64,000 nucleotides of DNA from Rhodobacterales bacterium. GTDB taxonomy: Bacteria > Pseudomonadota > Alphaproteobacteria > Rhodobacterales > Rhodobacteraceae. A program made the position numbers and the translations under genes. Shown piece by piece: positions 9,244 to 32,904 of this stretch. Location: positions 5,015 through 69,014 of the forward strand of contig JBBQHC010000002.1 in NCBI GenBank assembly GCA_038323615.1, written 5' to 3'. Position 1 is the stretch's first letter. Each line of letters starts with the position of its first letter. The notes beneath the pieces are model-generated. The model worked only from the letters and a program-made list of their open reading frames with translations, had not been told where the DNA came from and did no database searches.

Positions 9244-9446
9244 ACGGATCACGGGTGGTCGGGATTACCGCCCAAATACCAGCAAAGCCGGGGTGCAGTA
9301 CGAAACTGCCTCCGGCTTTGCCCGTTCCGGGGGCGGGCTTTGGCGCCAGCAAAATGGGCTGTCTGCGCCAAAACCGGGTGACGCCCCTTTGTAAATCCGG
9401 CTAACATCCCATAGATCAACAACACGTTATTTCAGCGAGGACCGTC

Positions 9447-10604: not shown

Positions 10605-11729
10605 ATGACCGCGCTCGACACTCCCCTCGACCATTTCAAGCTGGAGGACACCCGTGTCACCCGGCGCTATTTCGGCAAGTTCGAAAAGATCACCGGCTAT
10701 CTGGGCAAGGTCGCCGCGGTGATGGAGGCGGAGGGTAGCTATTCCCGCGCCGACATCGCCATTATTGCCCGCTATCTGATCGGGCTGAATCTTACCTTTC
10801 GCGCATTGGCCCACAAATACCATTTCGCCGGCCGGTTCGCCCATGCCGGACAACTGACGTTCGATCGGGTCGAGTCAGGCTTTCCGGTCTTTTCGGAACT
10901 GATGGAAATGGCCAATGACGCGCATCAGGCGGCGCGGCATCTGGAAGCCATGCCGACCCAAGAGGCGCTGAAGGATCAAATGGTGCGCACCATTGTCGGG
11001 GAGCAGTCGATCCCGACGAAATTGCAATACGCGCTGTCGCAGCGGCTGTATTACGAAGAACTGGTCAAGGGCGAATTGTTCTGGGCGCGCAATGACCCGC
11101 AGGCGGTCTGGATCGGCAATGCGCCCGACGGGCGGCGGACCTTTCAGGTGCATTGGGCGGTCTATGACAGTCAGGTCAACCTGCCGGTGATCTACCTGAT
11201 GGACCTCGAAGATAGCGGCCGCATTGGCCTGCCAAAAGACGAGCGCCGCTGGCCCGAGGCGCAGGCGCATCTGATGGCACAATCGCTGGACGGGCTGAAA
11301 CTGCTGACCATCGCAACCGGCTTTGACACCGATTTCGACGACCTGCACCCGGTCCGGCTGCGCCGGTTCCATATCGGCCCGATGTACAGCCACGCCTTTA
11401 CCCGCCAAGACGGCCCGTTGCGCGAGGTGCTGGAGGCGGCGCAGGCCCCGGTGGGCGAAGACTGGGCGCTGGTCTGGACCGAAGAGGATCTGGTGACCGA
11501 CCGGGTGGACACGGTGAAATCGGGCTGGTTCGGGTCGGTTGAACGGCAGATTTTCGCGCTCGACCCGCTGCTGGGGCGCGGCGACATGCTGGGCGCGACC
11601 CGGATGGAGCGGTCGCTGATCATGCCGGAACGGCCGTTTCAGGCCTTGGCTGAGAAAAAGCCGAAGGGGTTCGAGGATGTGCGCAAGTTCGTCGTCAGCC
11701 CCGGCGGTAAGGTGTTGAGTTATCGCTAG
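10605..11729 (+). CDS. hypothetical protein (374 aa), operon gene 2
   Basis: ATG 10605. Host-like third-position GC. Soluble-looking, with no motif I recognise. Confidence 0.75.
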   Translation: MTALDTPLDHFKLEDTRVTRRYFGKFEKITGYLGKVAAVMEAEGSYSRADIAIIARYLIGLNLTFRALAHKYHFAGRFAHAGQLTFDRVESGFPVFSELMEMANDAHQAARHLEAMPTQEALKDQMVRTIVGEQSIPTKLQYALSQRLYYEELVKGELFWARNDPQAVWIGNAPDGRRTFQVHWAVYDSQVNLPVIYLMDLEDSGRIGLPKDERRWPEAQAHLMAQSLDGLKLLTIATGFDTDFDDLHPVRLRRFHIGPMYSHAFTRQDGPLREVLEAAQAPVGEDWALVWTEEDLVTDRVDTVKSGWFGSVERQIFALDPLLGRGDMLGATRMERSLIMPERPFQALAEKKPKGFEDVRKFVVSPGGKVLSYR

Positions 11730-11835
11730 GGGCGACGGGTTGAAACCCGCCGTGACGGGCGCGGATTGCGACGGTCGCGAAGCCGGACAGTGCGGATGCC
11801 TCCGGCGGGAATATTTAAGGCCAAAAGAAGGTGAA
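11730..11835. repeat. mosaic intergenic element, copy 2 (REP-like hairpin plus AT-rich block) inside the operon
   Basis: CGGGTTGAAACCCG hairpin (11736-11749) and GGGAATATTTAAGGCCAAAAGAAGGTG (about 11807-11833). It fills nearly the whole gap between operon genes 2 and 3. Confidence 0.75.
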
Positions 11836-11843
11836 TCAGGACC

Positions 11844-13778
11844 ATGAGCCAGACGAGCGATCAGATGGAACTGCGCGAGGCGGATGTGCGCAAGCACTAT
11901 CCGGCGGCTTTGGCCCTGCTGGAAGGGTTCGATCACAGCCCGCGGATTGCGACGGGCACTGTCGCCGCCCCGGTTGAACGGTCCGATGGGATCGGGACGC
12001 GCCGCGCGTTCCGGTCGACCACACCGGGGCTTGTTGGGCGCAGGGTGGCGCGAACCGAAGGGATTCAACTGCTGACGCGGATTGCCGGGGTCGAAGGTGG
12101 CGAGGGGCTGACCTCGCCGGTGCAGGCCGCGGTGATGCAGGTCTTGCGCCGCGCTGTCGCCATCGCCATGGCCGTGGCCGAACAATACGCCGACCGTACC
12201 GGGTTGACCGACCTCAAGCGCGCCAACCTCGAAGGGGCGCTGCCCACCGCCAAAGGGTCGGAGTTTTCCGAATTGCTGACCGCCGAGGCATTGATCACGC
12301 TTTATGTTTTTGGGTCAGCCACGGCGTTTCTGCTGGCCTCTCACGCCGGGACCGAAACCGTCGAAGTGGGCGAGGTCGAGGAGGTTTTGACCGACAACGG
12401 CCAACTCGCTTTGCACGGCGCGCTGTGGGAGTTGGATCAGGACATCGGCGCACTGGCCGCGTCCGAGCCCAAACTGGTCGCCACCGTGCTGGCATTCGCC
12501 GAGGCGCTGATGGACAAGGTCAGTGCGCGGGCCAGCACCGCCGCCCGGCTGGAACCCTTCAACGCGGCAAGCTGGAAAGTTGAAGCCGACGGGTTCAGCG
12601 TGCGCGGTTTCACCCCCGCCCGGGCCGCCAGATCGACCACGCTAACAATGACCTTCAAGCAACCCAACGAGGTGATCGGCAATCACATCGCTAAATATCA
12701 GGCAATGAAACTGTCCAAGATGATCATGGCCTATGATTTCGACCGGCGCTTGAATCCCTTTGCCGAATTGGGCGGTTTCATTTTCACCTTCATGGGCGAC
12801 GGCGCACCGGGGACCGGCAAGACGACGCTGATTCAGATGATGGCCGGGCTGATCAATGGCTATTGTCAGACGGCGGGCTATCCGTTTCGGTATCAGAACC
12901 TGTCGACCGACAATATCGACAGTTATCAGGGCAAATCGGGGCAGAACGCCAAGGCGTTCATAACGTCTATTATCGACCCCGCCGTGATCGGATTTGGTAC
13001 CATCGACGATATTGACCAACTGGCCGGCAAGCGCGGCGATCGCCAGTCGAGCGCCGGTCAATTGGAAATTACCGCGGTGTTGATGGAAAGTTTCGCCGGG
13101 GCCAATACGGTCGTGCGCGGGAACTGCACGTTCGGGATGTTTTCCAATTATCCCGAAAACGTCGATGACGCCCTGCGCCAGCGGGCCGGGGCGCGGTTTC
13201 TGGTCGACGGGCCGATCACGCGCGACGATTATATCGACATTCTGTATCTGCTGATGGGCAAGAACCACAAGATCCCGGTCGGCGATCATCAGGTCTATGC
13301 CGCGCAGGAGATCAAAAAGGCTGTCGCGGACAGCTTTGAAAGTCATGCAAAGCCGCATGAGGAAGGACTGGAAAAGGTCTATAACCGGGTCAGCAGGGAT
13401 ATTGGCAAGCTGGATACGATTACCAAGCTCGGCACTTATCTGAAGGGTATTCAAGAGGCCGACCCCCGTTTCACCGGTCGCGCGATCAAGAATATCACCG
13501 ACGCGGTCAAGGTGCGGGCGATGGATTTCGAATTGCCGGACGAATGGATGGAAACCCCCGATCTGTTTCTTTTCAGATCCTACGACGAGAAGATGGGCAT
13601 GATCGAGGAACTGCGCCAGCCGATCACCGTCGAGATGGTGATTCAGGAAATCAACCGCTATGCGGATTCCGAATTCCGCTATGCCGATAAATCCGACGAG
13701 GTCGCGATTGCCGATATGGTGCGCGACTATGCCCGGCAGGAAGAGGCGAAGCGGCGCTATCTGGAGGGCAGGGAATGA
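11844..13778 (+). CDS. AAA+ ATPase, classic AAA clade, with unique N- and C-terminal regions
   Basis: 644 aa. Walker A GAPGTGKT (nt 12801-12824), Walker B GTIDDID (nt 12996-13016), and the second region of homology NYPENVDDALRQRAGARF. The ~300-aa N-terminal and ~170-aa C-terminal regions carry no motif I recognise. Confidence 0.9.
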   Translation: MSQTSDQMELREADVRKHYPAALALLEGFDHSPRIATGTVAAPVERSDGIGTRRAFRSTTPGLVGRRVARTEGIQLLTRIAGVEGGEGLTSPVQAAVMQVLRRAVAIAMAVAEQYADRTGLTDLKRANLEGALPTAKGSEFSELLTAEALITLYVFGSATAFLLASHAGTETVEVGEVEEVLTDNGQLALHGALWELDQDIGALAASEPKLVATVLAFAEALMDKVSARASTAARLEPFNAASWKVEADGFSVRGFTPARAARSTTLTMTFKQPNEVIGNHIAKYQAMKLSKMIMAYDFDRRLNPFAELGGFIFTFMGDGAPGTGKTTLIQMMAGLINGYCQTAGYPFRYQNLSTDNIDSYQGKSGQNAKAFITSIIDPAVIGFGTIDDIDQLAGKRGDRQSSAGQLEITAVLMESFAGANTVVRGNCTFGMFSNYPENVDDALRQRAGARFLVDGPITRDDYIDILYLLMGKNHKIPVGDHQVYAAQEIKKAVADSFESHAKPHEEGLEKVYNRVSRDIGKLDTITKLGTYLKGIQEADPRFTGRAIKNITDAVKVRAMDFELPDEWMETPDLFLFRSYDEKMGMIEELRQPITVEMVIQEINRYADSEFRYADKSDEVAIADMVRDYARQEEAKRRYLEGRE

Positions 13779-14128
13779 CCGGCATCACTCAGGCCTTTGC
13801 CGGCGGGCTGATCTTGCCGGCCGTCTGTGTTGCGGCGCTGGGCTGGGTCGTGCCGCGTCTGTTGGCGTTGATATTCCCCGAAGGCGTCACGGCGCTGATG
13901 CTACTGGCCTTGACGGCAACGGTTGTCATGCTGGCGTTTGGGGCCGGGTTTTTCGCGCTGCTTTATGTCTGGCAGGGCGTCCCGTTCGACATGCTGTTCG
14001 AGGGGGGCATCGCGGCGGGTGTGCTGCATTTCGGGCAACTTGGCCTGATTTCAGCCCTGTTATGGGCACCAATCCTGGTGCTGTCGGTGGCGGGTCTGCC
14101 GAAAAACTGGGTGACGATGGTATGGTGA
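13775..14128 (+). CDS. small polytopic membrane protein (117 aa), operon gene 4
   Basis: 3-4 hydrophobic helices. ATG 13775 overlaps the TGA of the ATPase gene (ATGA). Confidence 0.7.
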   Translation: MTGITQAFAGGLILPAVCVAALGWVVPRLLALIFPEGVTALMLLALTATVVMLAFGAGFFALLYVWQGVPFDMLFEGGIAAGVLHFGQLGLISALLWAPILVLSVAGLPKNWVTMVW

Positions 14129-14430
14129 ACTGGTTTCTTGCGATCCTGGTTGTCGGCCCCTGTCTGATCGGGGCCTTTGCCGGTTGGCGCGGCGGCCGGG
14201 TTGAAATGACTGTGCCCGCCGACATCCTGCGCCCGCTTGGCCTGACGCTGCTTGCGGCTCTCGCATGGTCGGCGGTGTTCGTGCTGGGGGTCCACGGTGT
14301 GACCAATGCGGCGCTGGGCGGGGCGTTCACCTGGACCGCGTTCCTGCCGTTTCTGGGGGTCGCCCTGCCGTTCGCGATCCCGTTGACGGTGATCGCCTTT
14401 TTCGTCAGTGCAAGGGCGTATCAGCGATGA
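14122..14430 (+). CDS. small polytopic membrane protein (102 aa), operon gene 5
   Basis: ATG 14122 lies 7 nt inside gene 4. Product MVNWFLAILVVGPCLIGAFAGW... has about three hydrophobic helices. The track ORF 13660..14430 is the same frame with a spurious upstream extension. Confidence 0.65.
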   Translation: MVNWFLAILVVGPCLIGAFAGWRGGRVEMTVPADILRPLGLTLLAALAWSAVFVLGVHGVTNAALGGAFTWTAFLPFLGVALPFAIPLTVIAFFVSARAYQR

Positions 14431-15779
14431 ATCTGCTGATTGAAAAGGGGCTGATGTTCGGCAATCTGATCCGGGTCGATAGCCCGGTATTGGTTGATCG
14501 CTATAACCGGGCGCTGAAACATCTGACCGGCAAAACCACCACGCTGAAAGAGTTTCATATCGACATTTCCGGCTATTCGCCCGAGGTCGGGGATGAATTG
14601 AACGACCATTTGTATCTCAACCACAACGGGGTGAACCGGCAATTCATTCTGCTGACGACAGAACAGACGACGGCGCCGCTGCTGAACGCCAACTTTTCCA
14701 CCTCGCGCGGCATCCTGCGCCAGTTTTATACCGCCAATGCGGCGCAACTGTTCGCCCTGACGGCCCGCGACGCGGTGGCGGGCGAATTGATCAATTCGGT
14801 CTATGTCGCGCCCACCGCCGCCGCCCTGTTCGACATCCGCAAGATCACGGTCGAGGCGGATACCACCGACGGCACCGTCGCGACGGCAGCGAAATTGGGG
14901 GCAATGATCGACCAGTTCAAAACCGAAAAGGACGCGTGGTTTGACGATGTGCTGATCGCGCAGATGATCGGGCTGGCCAAGGAAACCGGCGATCTGACGC
15001 GCAATCCGGTGGCCCTGCAAAAGATGAGCTTTGCGCAGGATAATTTCTGGACCGGCCTGTTCGGCGGCCTCTATCTGTTTCGCGGTGTCACCCATCCGGC
15101 GGCGATTGCCGCGACGGACAAGGCCAAACTTGGCGATCTGCCGATCCCCTATGTCTTTGATTTCAAGGACCGGTCGGCCATTGCCAAATTTCTTGAATTG
15201 AACGGGCTTGCCGAACCCATCGTCAAGGCGCGGGGCATCGATGCCGCTGCGATCCTGCATCAAAAGATGGATTTCGTCGTCGCCGAGGTCGCCAGCAAAC
15301 TGGGCGAGGATATGGCGGGGGCCACCCGGCGCGACCTGCGCAATCTGGGGCGACGTTATGCTGACAAACTGCCCGCCGAATGGCAGGGTCTGGCGGCGCT
15401 GGCCCGCTGGGCCGAGGATGGTGGCGACTGGCCAACGATCACATCCAACCATCCGGCCTATTTCTACACCCTGCGGGCGACGGCCCACCCCGACGCCGAT
15501 CTGGTGAATATGCTACTCGCTGATTTGGCTCCGCTGGACATCCGGCAGTTGTTTATCTGCCATAAAGAGGCGTTTTATGCGGCCTATGCCGGCTGGCCGG
15601 TTGAAAAGCAGGCCTATGTGGCGGACTTTCTGGAGCGCGAATATCAGGTGGACAAGGCCGGGACCCGCGCGGCGCTGTTCGGACACGAGGCGGCGATGGA
15701 AGAACCGGCACCGGTGACCCGGCCAAAGGTTGATATCGTCGATCTGGTAGGGCCCTGGGGCGCGATCAAGAGGAGATAG
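14427..15779 (+). CDS. hypothetical protein (450 aa), operon gene 6
   Basis: ATG 14427 overlaps the preceding TGA (ATGA). Soluble-looking, with no motif I recognise. The track ORF starts upstream at 14265 in the same frame. Confidence 0.75.
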   Translation: MNLLIEKGLMFGNLIRVDSPVLVDRYNRALKHLTGKTTTLKEFHIDISGYSPEVGDELNDHLYLNHNGVNRQFILLTTEQTTAPLLNANFSTSRGILRQFYTANAAQLFALTARDAVAGELINSVYVAPTAAALFDIRKITVEADTTDGTVATAAKLGAMIDQFKTEKDAWFDDVLIAQMIGLAKETGDLTRNPVALQKMSFAQDNFWTGLFGGLYLFRGVTHPAAIAATDKAKLGDLPIPYVFDFKDRSAIAKFLELNGLAEPIVKARGIDAAAILHQKMDFVVAEVASKLGEDMAGATRRDLRNLGRRYADKLPAEWQGLAALARWAEDGGDWPTITSNHPAYFYTLRATAHPDADLVNMLLADLAPLDIRQLFICHKEAFYAAYAGWPVEKQAYVADFLEREYQVDKAGTRAALFGHEAAMEEPAPVTRPKVDIVDLVGPWGAIKRR

Positions 15780-15782
15780 GCA

Positions 15783-16058
15783 ATGGCGTTCATCAAACTT
15801 TTCGTTTTTGGGTTTATCTTTCTCAGCGTGATCTACCTGTCGATTTCGATCTATTCGCGCTCGGTCCGGCGTGAAAAGCTGGAAAAACGCTGGGATGCAA
15901 ATCCGCCCGAGGGGGCCGACGCCGCGGCGCGGGATGCCTATATCGCGGAAGGCATGGCCGTCTATCACCACGGTTTGCGGCGCAAGCTGATTGCGCTGGT
16001 CTATGTCGTGCCGACCCTTATTATCGCGGTGATCCTCTACATCACGAACGCCAACTAA
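15783..16058 (+). CDS. two-TM membrane protein (91 aa), operon gene 7
   Basis: Starts 3 nt after the gene 6 stop. It has N- and C-terminal hydrophobic helices around a charged loop (RSVRREKLEKRWDANPPEG). Confidence 0.7.
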   Translation: MAFIKLFVFGFIFLSVIYLSISIYSRSVRREKLEKRWDANPPEGADAAARDAYIAEGMAVYHHGLRRKLIALVYVVPTLIIAVILYITNAN

Positions 16059-16070
16059 AGGACTGATTCC

Positions 16071-16748
16071 ATGCGCTATGTCAGAATGACGTTTCGGTTG
16101 ATTGTCGTCGTGATCCTGTTCAGCTTTTTCCACTACGTCCTGCCACAGCACGATATTGCCAAGGTGACCGGCACCTCGATCATTCCGACCGATCTGGGGG
16201 GTTTGAACAGCATCTTTTATGCGCAGACTGACAGCGGCAACGCGACCCTGCCAACGCGCAGTTTGCGGCTGATCAACACAACGAAACGGAACACGTTCCT
16301 GCTGGGGTTCATCCCGCGCGATAGCGAAAGCATCATGGTTTATCGCAACGAGGATACCGGCTGGATCTGGCCGCCCTATTTCAAGTTCGACAGTTCTGAT
16401 TTGCAGGCGACGGCAGACGCAAATGTGTCGACTGCGGACAATCCGCGCTGGGTCGTCATCACCCACTACGGCTGGCGCAACCGATTCTTTACGATCTATC
16501 CCAATGCTATCGGCATCCGTCCGGTATCGGGGCCGGATGTGCGGATCATCCCGTGGTTCAACATCTTTTTCTTTATCTTCCTGGCCATCGCTTACGTGTT
16601 TCTGCGGGCGATGTGGGCGCAGTTCCGCGAACGATCGGTCGATCCGCTGCTCGATTCGGCGGGCAACCGGATGGACGAGGTCAGCGCAGGCGTGGCCGAG
16701 CGGCGCAGCCGGATCAGTCGGTGGTTTGATTCGTGGCGGCGCAAATAG
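16071..16748 (+). CDS. DUF1523-like membrane protein (225 aa), operon gene 8
   Basis: N-terminal TM helix, a central domain with VVITHYGWRNRFFTIYPN, a second TM helix (IIPWFNIFFFIFLAIAYVFL) and a basic tail. It matches my recollection of the DUF1523 family. Needs an HMM check. Confidence 0.7.
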   Translation: MRYVRMTFRLIVVVILFSFFHYVLPQHDIAKVTGTSIIPTDLGGLNSIFYAQTDSGNATLPTRSLRLINTTKRNTFLLGFIPRDSESIMVYRNEDTGWIWPPYFKFDSSDLQATADANVSTADNPRWVVITHYGWRNRFFTIYPNAIGIRPVSGPDVRIIPWFNIFFFIFLAIAYVFLRAMWAQFRERSVDPLLDSAGNRMDEVSAGVAERRSRISRWFDSWRRK

Positions 16749-32223: not shown

Positions 32224-32904
32224 TTAGTGTTGTTTGGCTTTCAGCCGGGCCAGCACATCGTTGGCTGTGGTCCGGGTCGCGGTGCCGAAACCCTGATCCG
32301 ACATGCGGTCGGCAAGGCTGTCGTGGGTCAGGTCGCGGTCGATGTCGCGCAGGATTTCCGACTGTTCGAACGGGTCGTCGCGGCCAAGGACGCGGGCGAT
32401 CAGCTCTTCGGCCTCTTCGACCGAGGCTGACCCGCGATTGGTGGAATTCAGACGCACCTGAATATCCTGTTCGCGGCGCACCGCGCGGGCCTGAATCGCG
32501 CCTTGTTTCAGGTCGATGATCCGGCGATGCCCAGCTTCGATCGAGGTGCGCAGGCGCATCACCTTGTGGTCCAGCCGGGCAAGGGTTTCGGCCCTTATCG
32601 CCGCCTCGTTTTCCATCTGCGCGATGGCGCGGGCGGCCTCGGTCGTCATGTCTGCACGGTCGTTGTCCAGCGCATCCTGGGCGCGGGCCAGCATGTCGGC
32701 GATGCGCGAATCCAGCGCCTGTTTCTGCCGCTCTTCGCTGCGCTGCCTTTGGATCAGGCTGGCCAGCGTCGCCTTGGCGGCCTTGAGGCTGGCGTCGGCT
32801 TCGCGGATCTTCTGGTCGATCAGTTCGATGGCAAAGGCGTCGCGCACACGGTCTTCGGCGCGGGCATTGGCTCCGGTGATCAGGGTCGCAAGGGTCTTGA
32901 ACAT
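32224..32904 (-). CDS. pspA: PspA/IM30 family protein
   Basis: 226 aa starting at ATG 32904, after AAAGGAA. N-terminus MFKTLATLITGANARAED...IELIDQKIREA, followed by long coiled-coil heptads typical of PspA/Vipp1. Confidence 0.85.
   Translation of the reverse strand: MFKTLATLITGANARAEDRVRDAFAIELIDQKIREADASLKAAKATLASLIQRQRSEERQKQALDSRIADMLARAQDALDNDRADMTTEAARAIAQMENEAAIRAETLARLDHKVMRLRTSIEAGHRRIIDLKQGAIQARAVRREQDIQVRLNSTNRGSASVEEAEELIARVLGRDDPFEQSEILRDIDRDLTHDSLADRMSDQGFGTATRTTANDVLARLKAKQH

What the first reader, a model, noticed from the sequence alone, without database searches (positions are those of the whole stretch)
11844..13778. Classic-clade AAA+ ATPase with a ~300-aa unique N-terminal region and a ~170-aa helical tail
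Walker A (GAPGTGKT, nt 12801-12824), Walker B (GTIDDID) and the SRH-like NYPENVDDALRQRAGARF place the module with the FtsH/Cdc48/Vps4-type unfoldases, not with transposition, replication or McrB-type ATPases. The N-terminal region, which normally selects substrates or adaptors, includes a 20-residue hydrophobic stretch (ALITLYVFGSATAFLLASHAG) and has no recognisable domain. There is a single AAA cassette and no protease domain.
Basis: partly seen in the sequence, partly recalled or inferred. Interest (0 to 1): 0.6.

Follow-up and report, generated by a model that had tools for sequence, protein, structure and literature searches.

The report
Orphan AAA motor with novel N-domain
This gene encodes a real, strongly conserved ATP-driven motor protein of the well-known AAA type, but its front domain matches no known fold, one catalytic residue is unusual, and it always sits in the same unstudied four-gene cluster, so it is probably the engine of a bacterial machine nobody has characterised.

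Summary
It is a single-cassette classical-clade AAA ATPase: Pfam AAA 43.9 bits, and the best PDB sequence and fold matches are Cdc48/VAT/Afg2/p97/NSF/Rix7/Vps4/Msp1/FtsH-type.

It belongs to none of the named subfamilies. It has no NCBIfam hit, no MIT domain, no protease domain and no second cassette.

AlphaFold gives a confident N-domain (residues 5-31 plus 72-256, pTM 0.83) with no significant relative in PDB or BFVD. The "hydrophobic stretch" is a buried core helix, not a membrane segment. About two thirds of the "170-aa tail" reads as an enlarged AAA lid, leaving one roughly 48-residue terminal helix.

- Walker B is invariantly Asp-Asp, not Asp-Glu.
- An invariant Arg sits at the sensor-2 position.
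- Pore loop 1 is Tyr/Phe-Gln-Gly.

The gene is single-copy in 134 of 300 sampled Rhodobacteraceae genera (mostly 66-93% identity). Architecture-conserving relatives at about 25% identity occur in at least five other phyla. It always lies in the order coiled-coil gene, unknown gene, AAA, DUF6638, usually followed by membrane-protein genes, behind a sigma-32-like promoter.

Its function is unknown. The most likely role is the substrate-threading motor of this module. This scan has already met the same operon on other DNA (38 notes, at least 32 genomes).

The parts
11844..13778 (+). AAA ATPase gene, 644 aa, single cassette
   Evidence: ORF; Pfam AAA; more than 4000 homologues
11856..11936 (+). 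N-terminal element (residues 5-31: strand, two short helices, strand) that packs into the N-domain
   Evidence: pLDDT 94-97 in the isolated N-domain model, 87-92 in the full-length model
11949..12056 (+). Disordered basic loop (residues 36-71) carrying a conserved aromatic-R-x-[ST]-[ST] motif (RRAFRSTTPG)
   Evidence: pLDDT below 50; the motif is kept in clades A and B
12057..12611 (+). Helical-bundle N-domain (residues 72-241) closed by a beta-hairpin (243-256). Includes the hydrophobic core helix 135-167. Invariant residues: R102, L121, L124, N128, F141, R229, F239, G255, F256
   Evidence: AF2 pTM 0.83; no fold match in PDB or BFVD; invariant columns; hydropathy in relatives
12672..13217 (+). 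AAA alpha/beta subdomain (residues 277-458)
   Evidence: AF2 secondary structure; alignment to Cdc48 D1 and D2; 93% mean identity within clade A
12801..12824 (+). Walker A GAPGTGKT (K326 invariant)
12924..12932 (+). Pore loop 1, Y361-Q362-G363 (Q and G invariant in clades A and B; Tyr or Phe at the first position)
   Evidence: Aligns with FVG of this genome's FtsH and with MAG/WYG of Cdc48; invariance
12996..13016 (+). Walker B GTIDDID: D388-D389, with Asp in place of the catalytic Glu
   Evidence: alignment to IDEID of Cdc48 and Yme1
13146..13199 (+). Sensor-1 N435 and second region of homology, with a single Arg finger R447 (Q446 precedes it)
   Evidence: N435 and R447 invariant
13218..13613 (+). 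Enlarged lid subdomain (residues 459-590) with an inserted helical segment (about 476-540)
   Evidence: AF2 secondary structure; region identities; the boundaries are inferred
13470..13496 (+). FTGRAIKNI lid motif. Invariant R546 sits at the sensor-2 position, where FtsH of the same genome has Ala (GFSGADLANL)
   Evidence: R546 invariant in all three clades; FtsH sequence; motif-level alignment only
13629..13772 (+). Long C-terminal helix (residues 596-643) with conserved E602 and Y606
   Evidence: conserved columns
9389..9416 (+). Sigma-32-like promoter candidate TTGTAAA-N13-CCCATAGAT upstream of the first operon gene
   Evidence: compared with the clpB, dnaK and hslV upstream regions of the same genome
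9447..10526 (+). Operon gene 1: 359-aa coiled-coil protein. Most conserved partner (mean 76% identity), with an invariant Tyr near the C-terminus
10605..11729 (+). Operon gene 2: 374-aa protein with no family. Present in 58 of 58 related loci
13775..14430 (+). Two small hydrophobic ORFs. The first start overlaps the AAA stop (ATGA). Poorly conserved: found in 5 of 58 loci
14427..15779 (+). DUF6638 protein (PF20343, 780 bits). Present in 58 of 58 related loci and in all distant operons examined
15783..16748 (+). 91-aa membrane protein and DUF1523 (PF07509) membrane protein. These accessory partners are replaced by other membrane proteins in other lineages

Best explanation
The protein is the ATPase motor of a conserved, uncharacterised four-protein cytoplasmic module: coiled-coil protein, unknown 374-aa protein, this AAA ATPase, and a DUF6638 protein. 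In most lineages the module is coupled to membrane proteins.

Shown:
- It is a single-cassette classical-clade AAA protein.
- It keeps Walker A Lys, sensor-1 Asn, one Arg finger and an aromatic-Gln-Gly pore loop 1.
- It has a family-specific N-domain of unknown fold.
- It is locked in one gene order with the other three genes.

Inferred:
- It assembles into a hexameric ring and threads a polypeptide through its pore.
- The novel N-domain, including a conserved motif in a disordered loop, recruits the client or an adaptor.
- The most probable client is the co-conserved coiled-coil protein, or an assembly of it at the membrane, which the motor would disassemble or remodel.
- The operon is switched on by heat or proteotoxic stress through a sigma-32-type promoter.
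- The invariant Asp-for-Glu in Walker B, together with an Arg at the sensor-2 position, suggests slow or partner-gated hydrolysis rather than constitutive turnover.
For: Cassette identity:
- Pfam AAA 43.9 bits.
- The profile hits only classical-clade chains at the top of the PDB list.
- Foldseek top hits are substrate-bound Rix7, AFG3L2, FIGNL1, Cdc48, Msp1, Vps4 and Rpt.

Catalytic and translocation residues:
- Invariant in both alignments: K326, N435, G363, R546.
- Invariant in the 122-sequence clade A/B alignment and at least 90% across all clades: R447, D388, D389.
- Q362 is invariant in clades A and B. The Y361 position is Tyr or Phe in the family consensus.

N-domain:
- Confidently folded (pTM 0.83).
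- Conserved: 74% mean identity in clade A, alignable at 21% to clade B.

Module:
- Same order and strand in 58 of 58 (gene 2, DUF6638) and 57 of 58 (coiled-coil) full-flank loci.
- Same order in Verrucomicrobiota, Bdellovibrionota, Patescibacteria, Deinococcota and Bacteroidota.
- The four soluble genes stand alone in a Trueperaceae genome and one other genome.
- The coiled-coil protein (76%) and the AAA (72%) are the most conserved members.

Promoter:
- Motif TGTAAA-N12-15-CCCATAT, or CTTG-N17-18-CC(C/T)ATAT, at a fixed distance upstream of gene 1 in most of 21 loci.
- It resembles the upstream regions of clpB, dnaK and hslV in the same genome.
- It fits the conserved -35 TTG triplet and the general likeness to E. 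coli sigma-32 promoters reported for Rhodobacter sphaeroides RpoH promoters (PMC3441632).
Against: - No experiment exists and no paper describes the family.
- Asp at the catalytic Walker B position could mean very weak hydrolysis.
- Hexamer formation, threading, the client and membrane association are all inferred.
- The coiled-coil protein is not detectably related to PspA/IM30 (hhalign probability 14%) or to any Pfam family, so the Vps4/ESCRT-III picture is only an analogy.
- In most relatives the -35 element reads ATG rather than the TTG that RpoH needs.
Confidence: 0.55

Rival explanations
1. It is a general stress quality-control machine. The AAA ring extracts or unfolds damaged, mostly membrane, proteins in the manner of Msp1/ATAD1, or of FtsH without its protease. 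The other operon proteins serve as anchors and adaptors rather than clients.
For: Msp1, AFG3L2 and Yme1-type chains are among the best sequence and fold matches. The promoter is sigma-32-like. Membrane-protein genes follow the operon in most lineages, and the first overlaps the AAA stop codon.
Against: The ATPase itself has no membrane segment. The membrane partners are not conserved and are missing in some genomes, whereas the three soluble partners are invariant, which suits a dedicated client or adaptor set better. No protease is linked to it.
Confidence: 0.2
2. It is a nucleotide-dependent switch or scaffold rather than a motor. With Asp instead of the catalytic Glu, it mainly binds ATP to control assembly of the other three proteins, with little or no translocation.
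For: Walker B is DD throughout the family. From my own knowledge, not checked here, AAA+ domains with DD such as NSF-D2 and DnaA are slow or non-hydrolysing.
Against: Sensor-1 Asn, the Arg finger and the Gln-Gly of pore loop 1 are invariant in the 122-sequence alignment. These residues are normally lost in purely structural AAA domains. The AAA alpha/beta subdomain is the most conserved large region of the protein (93% within clade A).
Confidence: 0.15
3. It is part of an anti-phage defence or other mobile accessory system that spreads horizontally.
For: The distribution across phyla is patchy, and only 4 of 301 sampled Alphaproteobacteria genomes carry it. Copies occur in Halomonas and on Vibrio megaplasmids. 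There is a weak PADLOC TRIP13 hit (E 8e-5, 20 bits).
Against: It is single copy and mostly 66-93% identical in 134 of 300 Rhodobacteraceae genera, which looks vertical. None of the six partner proteins gave a meaningful PADLOC match; the only one was a marginal REase_II hit (E 0.004) for the coiled-coil protein. No relatives were found on viral contigs or in phage genomes. The plasmid copies are on non-mobilizable replicons of 0.9-4.6 Mb. The promoter is of the heat-shock type. The TRIP13 hit covers only the generic AAA core.
Confidence: 0.05

Closest known systems
Classical-clade AAA unfoldases in general (Cdc48/p97/VAT D1-D2, Afg2, Rix7, NSF; Pfam PF00004)
   Same: Fold and motif order of the cassette: Walker A, a pore loop 1 with an aromatic residue and Gly, sensor-1 Asn, a second region of homology with an Arg finger, and a lid with the F-[ST]-G-x-x-[IL]-x-N-[IL] motif. 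These are the best sequence and fold matches.
   Different: One cassette, not two. There is no double-psi-barrel N-domain. Walker B is DD. Arg occupies the sensor-2 position. Pore loop 1 has Gln where the others have a hydrophobic residue. The lid carries a large insertion and a long terminal helix. It scores only 9.5 bits against FtsH of its own genome.
Vps4/CdvC with ESCRT-III (and the bacterial ESCRT-III relatives PspA/Vipp1)
   Same: A single-cassette classical AAA with a helical N-domain, encoded next to a long coiled-coil protein that ends in a conserved short tail. This matches the logic of a motor that recycles a helical polymer at a membrane. Vps4 chains are among the single-cassette matches.
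   Different: There is no MIT domain: the N-domain is about 210 ordered residues with no fold match. The second region of homology has Gln-Arg, not Arg-Arg. The coiled-coil partner is not detectably homologous to PspA/IM30 (hhalign probability 14%) and has no Pfam hit. Two further obligatory partners (gene 2 and DUF6638) have no ESCRT counterpart.
FtsH / Yme1 (i-AAA) ATPase module
   Same: The best single-sequence PDB hit is the Yme1 ATPase domain (5ubv, E 3e-5). It is also a bacterial stress-regulated classical AAA.
   Different: There are no transmembrane helices and no M41 protease domain. Neither FtsH nor any other NCBIfam model matches.
Msp1/ATAD1 membrane-protein extractase
   Same: A single cassette with high structural similarity (TM-score normalised to target 0.46-0.52). 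Its genes are also associated with membrane-protein genes.
   Different: There is no N-terminal membrane anchor. It has a large soluble N-domain and three dedicated soluble partners.

Membership tests
Classical-clade AAA (Pfam PF00004) | Score above the Pfam gathering threshold | tested here: met
   43.9 bits against a cut-off of 21.2, residues 320-453
Classical-clade AAA (Pfam PF00004) | Walker A GxxGxGK[ST] | tested here: met
   GAPGTGKT at 320-327; G323, G325 and K326 invariant
Classical-clade AAA (Pfam PF00004) | Walker B hhhhDE with a catalytic Glu | tested here: not met
   GTIDD: D389 aligns with the Glu of IDEID in Cdc48 and Yme1. DD is invariant in the 122-sequence alignment
Classical-clade AAA (Pfam PF00004) | Sensor-1 Asn and a second region of homology with Arg finger(s) | tested here: met
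   N435 and R447 invariant. Only one Arg is present, preceded by Q446
Classical-clade AAA (Pfam PF00004) | Nearest solved structures are classical-clade members | tested here: met
   Cdc48, VAT, Afg2, p97, NSF, Rix7, Vps4, AFG3L2, FIGNL1, Msp1, Rpt
Classical-clade AAA (Pfam PF00004) | No sensor-2 Arg in the lid (clade hallmark, from my own knowledge) | tested here: inconclusive
   Invariant R546 in FTGRAIKNI lines up with the Ala of GFSGADLANL in this genome's FtsH. This is a motif-level alignment only
Vps4 / meiotic clade | N-terminal MIT three-helix bundle | tested here: not met
   No Pfam hit in residues 1-319. Foldseek on the N-domain model found nothing with E below 1
Vps4 / meiotic clade | Paired Arg-Arg in the second region of homology | tested here: not met
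   LRQRAGARF: Q446-R447. The family consensus is S-R
Vps4 / meiotic clade | ESCRT-III/PspA-superfamily partner | tested here: not met
   hhalign of the coiled-coil family against PspA_IM30 gave probability 14%. Pfam at E up to 10 listed no PspA, Snf7 or TelA
FtsH | N-terminal transmembrane helices and a C-terminal M41 protease | tested here: not met
   Pfam finds only AAA. NCBIfam finds nothing. No TM segment
Cdc48/p97/VAT | Two tandem AAA cassettes and a double-psi-barrel N-domain | tested here: not met
   One cassette. The N-domain is a helical bundle
Named bacterial single-cassette AAAs (SpoVK, CbbX, EccA, ARC/Mpa) | Match to the NCBIfam model of the subfamily | tested here: not met
   No NCBIfam family at E up to 0.01. 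EccA1 appears only as a weak PDB hit, E 0.005
Known anti-phage defence systems (PADLOC 2.0) | Component proteins match system models | tested here: not met
   The AAA core gave only a 20-bit TRIP13 hit. Of the six partners, five had no hit and the coiled-coil protein had a marginal REase_II hit at E 0.004

The most novel reading that the evidence does not exclude
The ATPase is the engine of an undescribed, widely distributed bacterial stress machine that works like Vps4 with ESCRT-III but was built independently. A non-homologous coiled-coil protein would polymerise at the membrane and be recycled by an AAA ring. The ring would recognise it through a new kind of N-domain, with hydrolysis gated through its Asp-Asp Walker B and sensor-2 Arg by the two orphan partners (gene 2 and DUF6638).
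Probability: 0.22. Interest if true: 0.8.

Novelty: new variant of a known kind. Interest (0 to 1): 0.55.

Why it matters
AAA unfoldases are among the best-understood molecular motors, and few widespread bacterial lineages of the classical clade have no known function. This one has three notable properties:
- It is a core, strongly constrained gene of the marine Roseobacter group. It is also present in rhizobia, including Sinorhizobium meliloti, and in at least five other phyla, among them the genome-reduced Patescibacteria.
- It carries an N-domain with no known fold and an invariant Asp at the catalytic Glu position. This is a natural test case for how much Walker B chemistry a working AAA ring tolerates.
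- It is locked to three orphan proteins, so identifying its client would assign a function to four families at once (DUF6638 included).

Genetically tractable hosts exist, so the question can be tested directly.

Tried and rejected
- **Transmembrane anchor in residues 149-169.** Rejected. It is a core helix at pLDDT above 90, and its equivalents in clade B carry charged residues.
- **Named AAA subfamily.** No NCBIfam match. Only 9.5 bits to this genome's FtsH.
- **Fold of the N-domain.** Foldseek against PDB (best E 1.4, probability 0.08) and against BFVD (best E 0.47) gave nothing. The top PDB rows are CdvB2 filaments, but these are insignificant helical-hairpin matches.
- **Coiled-coil partner as PspA/IM30.** hhalign probability 14%. 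Pfam at E up to 10 shows no PspA, Snf7 or TelA.
hhalign probability 0.1%.
- **PDB profile searches** for the coiled-coil protein, gene 2 and DUF6638 gave nothing meaningful.
- **Phage or mobile origin.** No relatives on IMG/VR contigs or in phage genomes.
- **Literature.** DUF6638 and DUF1523 appear only in unrelated papers. The PSP/ESCRT survey (PMC11237479) describes other Vps4-like contexts, not this operon. I guessed S. meliloti locus tags from the neighbouring choline-transporter genes; that gave one unannotated ChvI-binding fragment inside SMc02733 (PMC3687685), and I could not verify that it is this gene.
- **The search for related loci** with the 83-sequence alignment failed because the alignment was too diverse.
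Full report
**Observation.** The window holds an ATG-initiated ORF at 11844-13778 (+) of 644 codons. Homologues start with the same N-terminal residues, so the start codon is right. The stop overlaps the ATG of the next ORF (ATGA at 13775-13778). The gene is single copy in its genome, a 3.24-Mb, 249-contig assembly that is 89.7% complete.

**What the sequence databases say.** Pfam finds one AAA domain (PF00004, residues 320-453, 43.9 bits) and nothing in residues 1-319 or 473-644, even at E up to 10. NCBIfam, which holds models for FtsH, proteasomal ATPases, CDC48, SpoVK, CbbX, ARC and EccA, returns nothing at E up to 0.01. PADLOC gives only a 20-bit TRIP13 hit on the AAA core.

The single sequence hits PDB chains weakly. 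The Yme1 ATPase domain is best (E 3e-5), followed by katanin, Vps4, fidgetin-like 1, EccA1 and Afg2. A profile of 83 family members hits Cdc48, VAT, Afg2, p97, NSF, NVL, Rix7 and Vps4 (E 1e-34 to 1e-18). The cassette is therefore classical-clade but belongs to no named subfamily. Against FtsH of its own genome the family profile scores only 9.5 bits.

**Motifs.**
- Walker A K326 and sensor-1 N435 are invariant. R447 is invariant in the 122-sequence alignment of clades A and B, and at least 90% conserved when clade C is added. Only one Arg is present in the second region of homology: the sequence is Q446-R447 where Vps4-type proteins have R-R.
- In pore loop 1, Y361-Q362-G363 aligns with FVG of FtsH and with MAG/WYG of Cdc48. 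Gln and Gly are invariant in clades A and B. The first position is Tyr in the clade A consensus and Phe in clade B.
- Walker B is the strand 382-387 followed by D388-D389. D389 aligns with the catalytic Glu of IDEID. D388 and D389 are invariant in the 122 sequences and at least 90% conserved across all three clades.
- In the lid, FTGRAIKNI is the counterpart of GFSGADLANL. Invariant R546 falls where classical AAA proteins have Ala and most other AAA+ clades have the sensor-2 Arg. This rests on motif alignment only.

Keeping the sensor-1 residue, the Arg finger and the pore loop argues for a working ring. Asp-for-Glu argues for slow or gated hydrolysis. That last point rests on general knowledge of AAA+ enzymes and was not tested here.

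**Structure.** AlphaFold2 with a 122-sequence alignment gives mean pLDDT 81.7. The elements are:

| Residues | Element |
|---|---|
| 5-31 | short beta/alpha element |
| 36-71 | disordered loop |
| 76-241 | five-helix bundle |
| 243-254 | beta-hairpin |
| 277-458 | AAA alpha/beta subdomain |
| about 459-590 | helical lid, carrying extra helices (about 476-540) |
| 596-643 | one long terminal helix |

Folding residues 1-262 alone, with 27 sequences, gave pLDDT 85.8 and pTM 0.83, and the 5-31 element stayed at pLDDT 94-97. That element therefore belongs to the N-domain, forming a small sheet with strand 72-74 and the hairpin.

The disordered loop carries a conserved aromatic-R-x-[ST]-[ST] motif (RRAFRSTTPG here) that is shared with the distant clade. 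It is a candidate docking or regulatory peptide.

Foldseek of the whole model finds only AAA modules. Foldseek of the N-domain finds nothing significant in PDB (best E 1.4, probability 0.08, TM about 0.2) or in BFVD.

In 85 of 90 distant homologues the equivalent segment has 1-3 charged residues, and the mean hydropathy is 0.9. It is a core helix, not a membrane segment.

**Family and distribution.**
- More than 4000 homologues are listed; the 120 best are full length at 78-100% identity and come from Yoonia, Octadecabacter, Cognatiyoonia, Sulfitobacter and related genera.
- In a sample of one genome per genus, 134 of 300 Rhodobacteraceae genera have it, one complete copy each. Full-length matches are 66-93% identical.
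- Only 4 of 301 genomes sampled across the class have it.
- Named relatives also include Hellea, Robiginitomaculum, Litorimonas and Algimonas (about 70%), Stappia and Labrenzia (67-69%), one Halomonas (68%, probably acquired horizontally), Mesorhizobium and Pararhizobium (51-52%), Sinorhizobium, Shinella and Rhizobium (49-52%), and Vibrio megaplasmids (38%).
- An all-against-library search found 671 clusters at 50% identity. A tree resolves three clades. Clade A is the window's own. Clade B has about 25% identity with the same length and architecture over residues about 70-640. Clade C shares only the cassette and the C-terminal part.
- Clade B members come from Verrucomicrobiota, Bdellovibrionota, Patescibacteria, Bacteroidota and Deinococcota.
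- Within clade A the alpha/beta subdomain is 93% identical, the sensor-2 helix 96%, the N-domain 74% and the terminal region 80%.

**Context.** Among 58 related loci with full flanks, gene 2 and DUF6638 are present in 58, the coiled-coil gene in 57, DUF1523 in 55 and the 91-aa membrane protein in 50. All lie on the same strand in the same order. The upstream YkuD gene is present in only 8, and the small ORFs after the AAA gene in only 5.

The order coiled-coil, gene 2, AAA, DUF6638 recurs in Pelagicoccus, a Bdellovibrionota genome, a Patescibacteria genome and a Chitinophagales genome. There it is followed by a 180-226-aa and a roughly 530-aa membrane protein of no Pfam family. It recurs without any membrane genes in a Trueperaceae genome and one other genome. 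In S. meliloti the membrane partner is a DUF2333 protein.

The invariant unit is therefore four soluble proteins. The three partners have no relative in PDB by profile search.

**Regulation.** Upstream of the first gene the window reads TTGTAAA-N13-CCCATAGAT (9389-9416). In 12 of 21 related upstream regions TGTAA[AT] occurs, in 11 of them 57-72 nt before the ATG, usually followed 12-15 nt later by CCCATAT. Several of the remaining regions show CTTG-N17-18-CC(C/T)ATAT or CCCCAGAT.

The upstream regions of clpB, dnaK and hslV in the same genome have the same CTTG/GTTG-N17-19-CC(C)AT(A/T)TAG layout. For R. sphaeroides RpoH promoters the paper reports a conserved, functionally required TTG in the -35 element and a sequence logo similar to the E. 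coli sigma-32 consensus (PMC3441632). Heat-shock control is thus plausible but not shown. The frequent ATG in place of TTG at -35 is a caveat.

**Mechanism.** What is shown is a classical AAA cassette with the ring-forming and translocating residues kept, a novel and conserved N-domain, and obligatory linkage to three orphan proteins. What is inferred is a hexamer that threads a client chosen by the N-domain.

The coiled-coil protein is as conserved as the ATPase and ends in a conserved Tyr-containing tail (...KNLYG in clade A, YGIDP..SSFF in clade B). That makes it the best candidate client and gives a Vps4/ESCRT-III-like logic.

This is an analogy only. The partner is not detectably related to PspA/IM30 (hhalign probability 14%), there is no MIT domain, and two extra partners have no ESCRT counterpart. 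Rivals are a general membrane-protein quality-control extractase, an ATP-binding switch, and a defence or mobile module. The last is disfavoured by vertical inheritance, by the lack of meaningful PADLOC matches for the partners, and by the absence of relatives on viral contigs and in phage genomes.

**Comparison and novelty.** No paper in the library describes the family. Source databases call it only "AAA family ATPase" or "ATP-binding protein", and sometimes "EcfA2", which does not fit a classical AAA cassette.

It is a new variant of a known kind. The motor type is familiar. The N-domain, the Walker B chemistry, the sensor-2 Arg and the partner set are not.

Earlier notes of this scan describe the same operon on other DNA (38 notes in at least 32 genomes). 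I saw the Walker B change, the conserved operon and its spread across phyla in my own data before I read those notes, and they agree. I took from them the sigma-32-type promoter and the rhizobial and Vibrio-plasmid copies, both of which I tested here. I also took a claim of paralogy between the two orphan proteins, which my test did not support.

Noticed in passing
window 32230-32904 (-): A PspA_IM30 (PF04012) homologue (50.5 bits against a cut-off of 33.9) lies about 16 kb downstream of the AAA operon. It is not adjacent to the operon and is not part of it.
   Followed up: partly
window 11730-11835: The only sizeable intergenic gap of the operon holds a GC-rich hairpin (CGGGTTGAAACCCG) and an AT-rich block ending just before the AAA start codon. 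It may be a repeat element or an internal regulatory site.
   Followed up: no
window 11949-12056 (AAA residues 36-71): A loop predicted as disordered carries a conserved aromatic-R-x-[ST]-[ST] motif (RRAFRSTTPG). The motif is shared by relatives only 20% identical, so it is a candidate docking or phosphorylation site.
   Followed up: partly
window 13779-14426 and the equivalent spacers in L044-L123: The spacer between the AAA and DUF6638 genes varies from about 0 to 3.4 kb among 58 relatives. It holds non-conserved small hydrophobic ORFs; the 117-aa ORF of this window was found in only 5 of the 58.
   Followed up: partly
L089 (Halomonas ventosae CP022737.1, 1332786-1348717): A gammaproteobacterium carries the whole alphaproteobacterial-type operon, with the AAA 68% identical. 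This is probably horizontal transfer.
   Followed up: no
L031 (S. meliloti Ak57, CP090106.1, 2665656-2679458): In this strain the operon is interrupted between the AAA and DUF6638 genes by an endonuclease-domain gene and ISRm16. The 3.7-Mb record is labelled pSymB but has the size of a chromosome.
   Followed up: no
L007-L009, L011 (genes after DUF6638): Clade B operons end with a membrane protein of about 190 aa and another of about 530 aa, neither with a Pfam family. The larger one shows a faint DUF1523-like stretch (WVQVVTL.RW.GFFFP against WVVITHYGWRNRFFTIYP; BLASTP E 0.16).
   Followed up: partly
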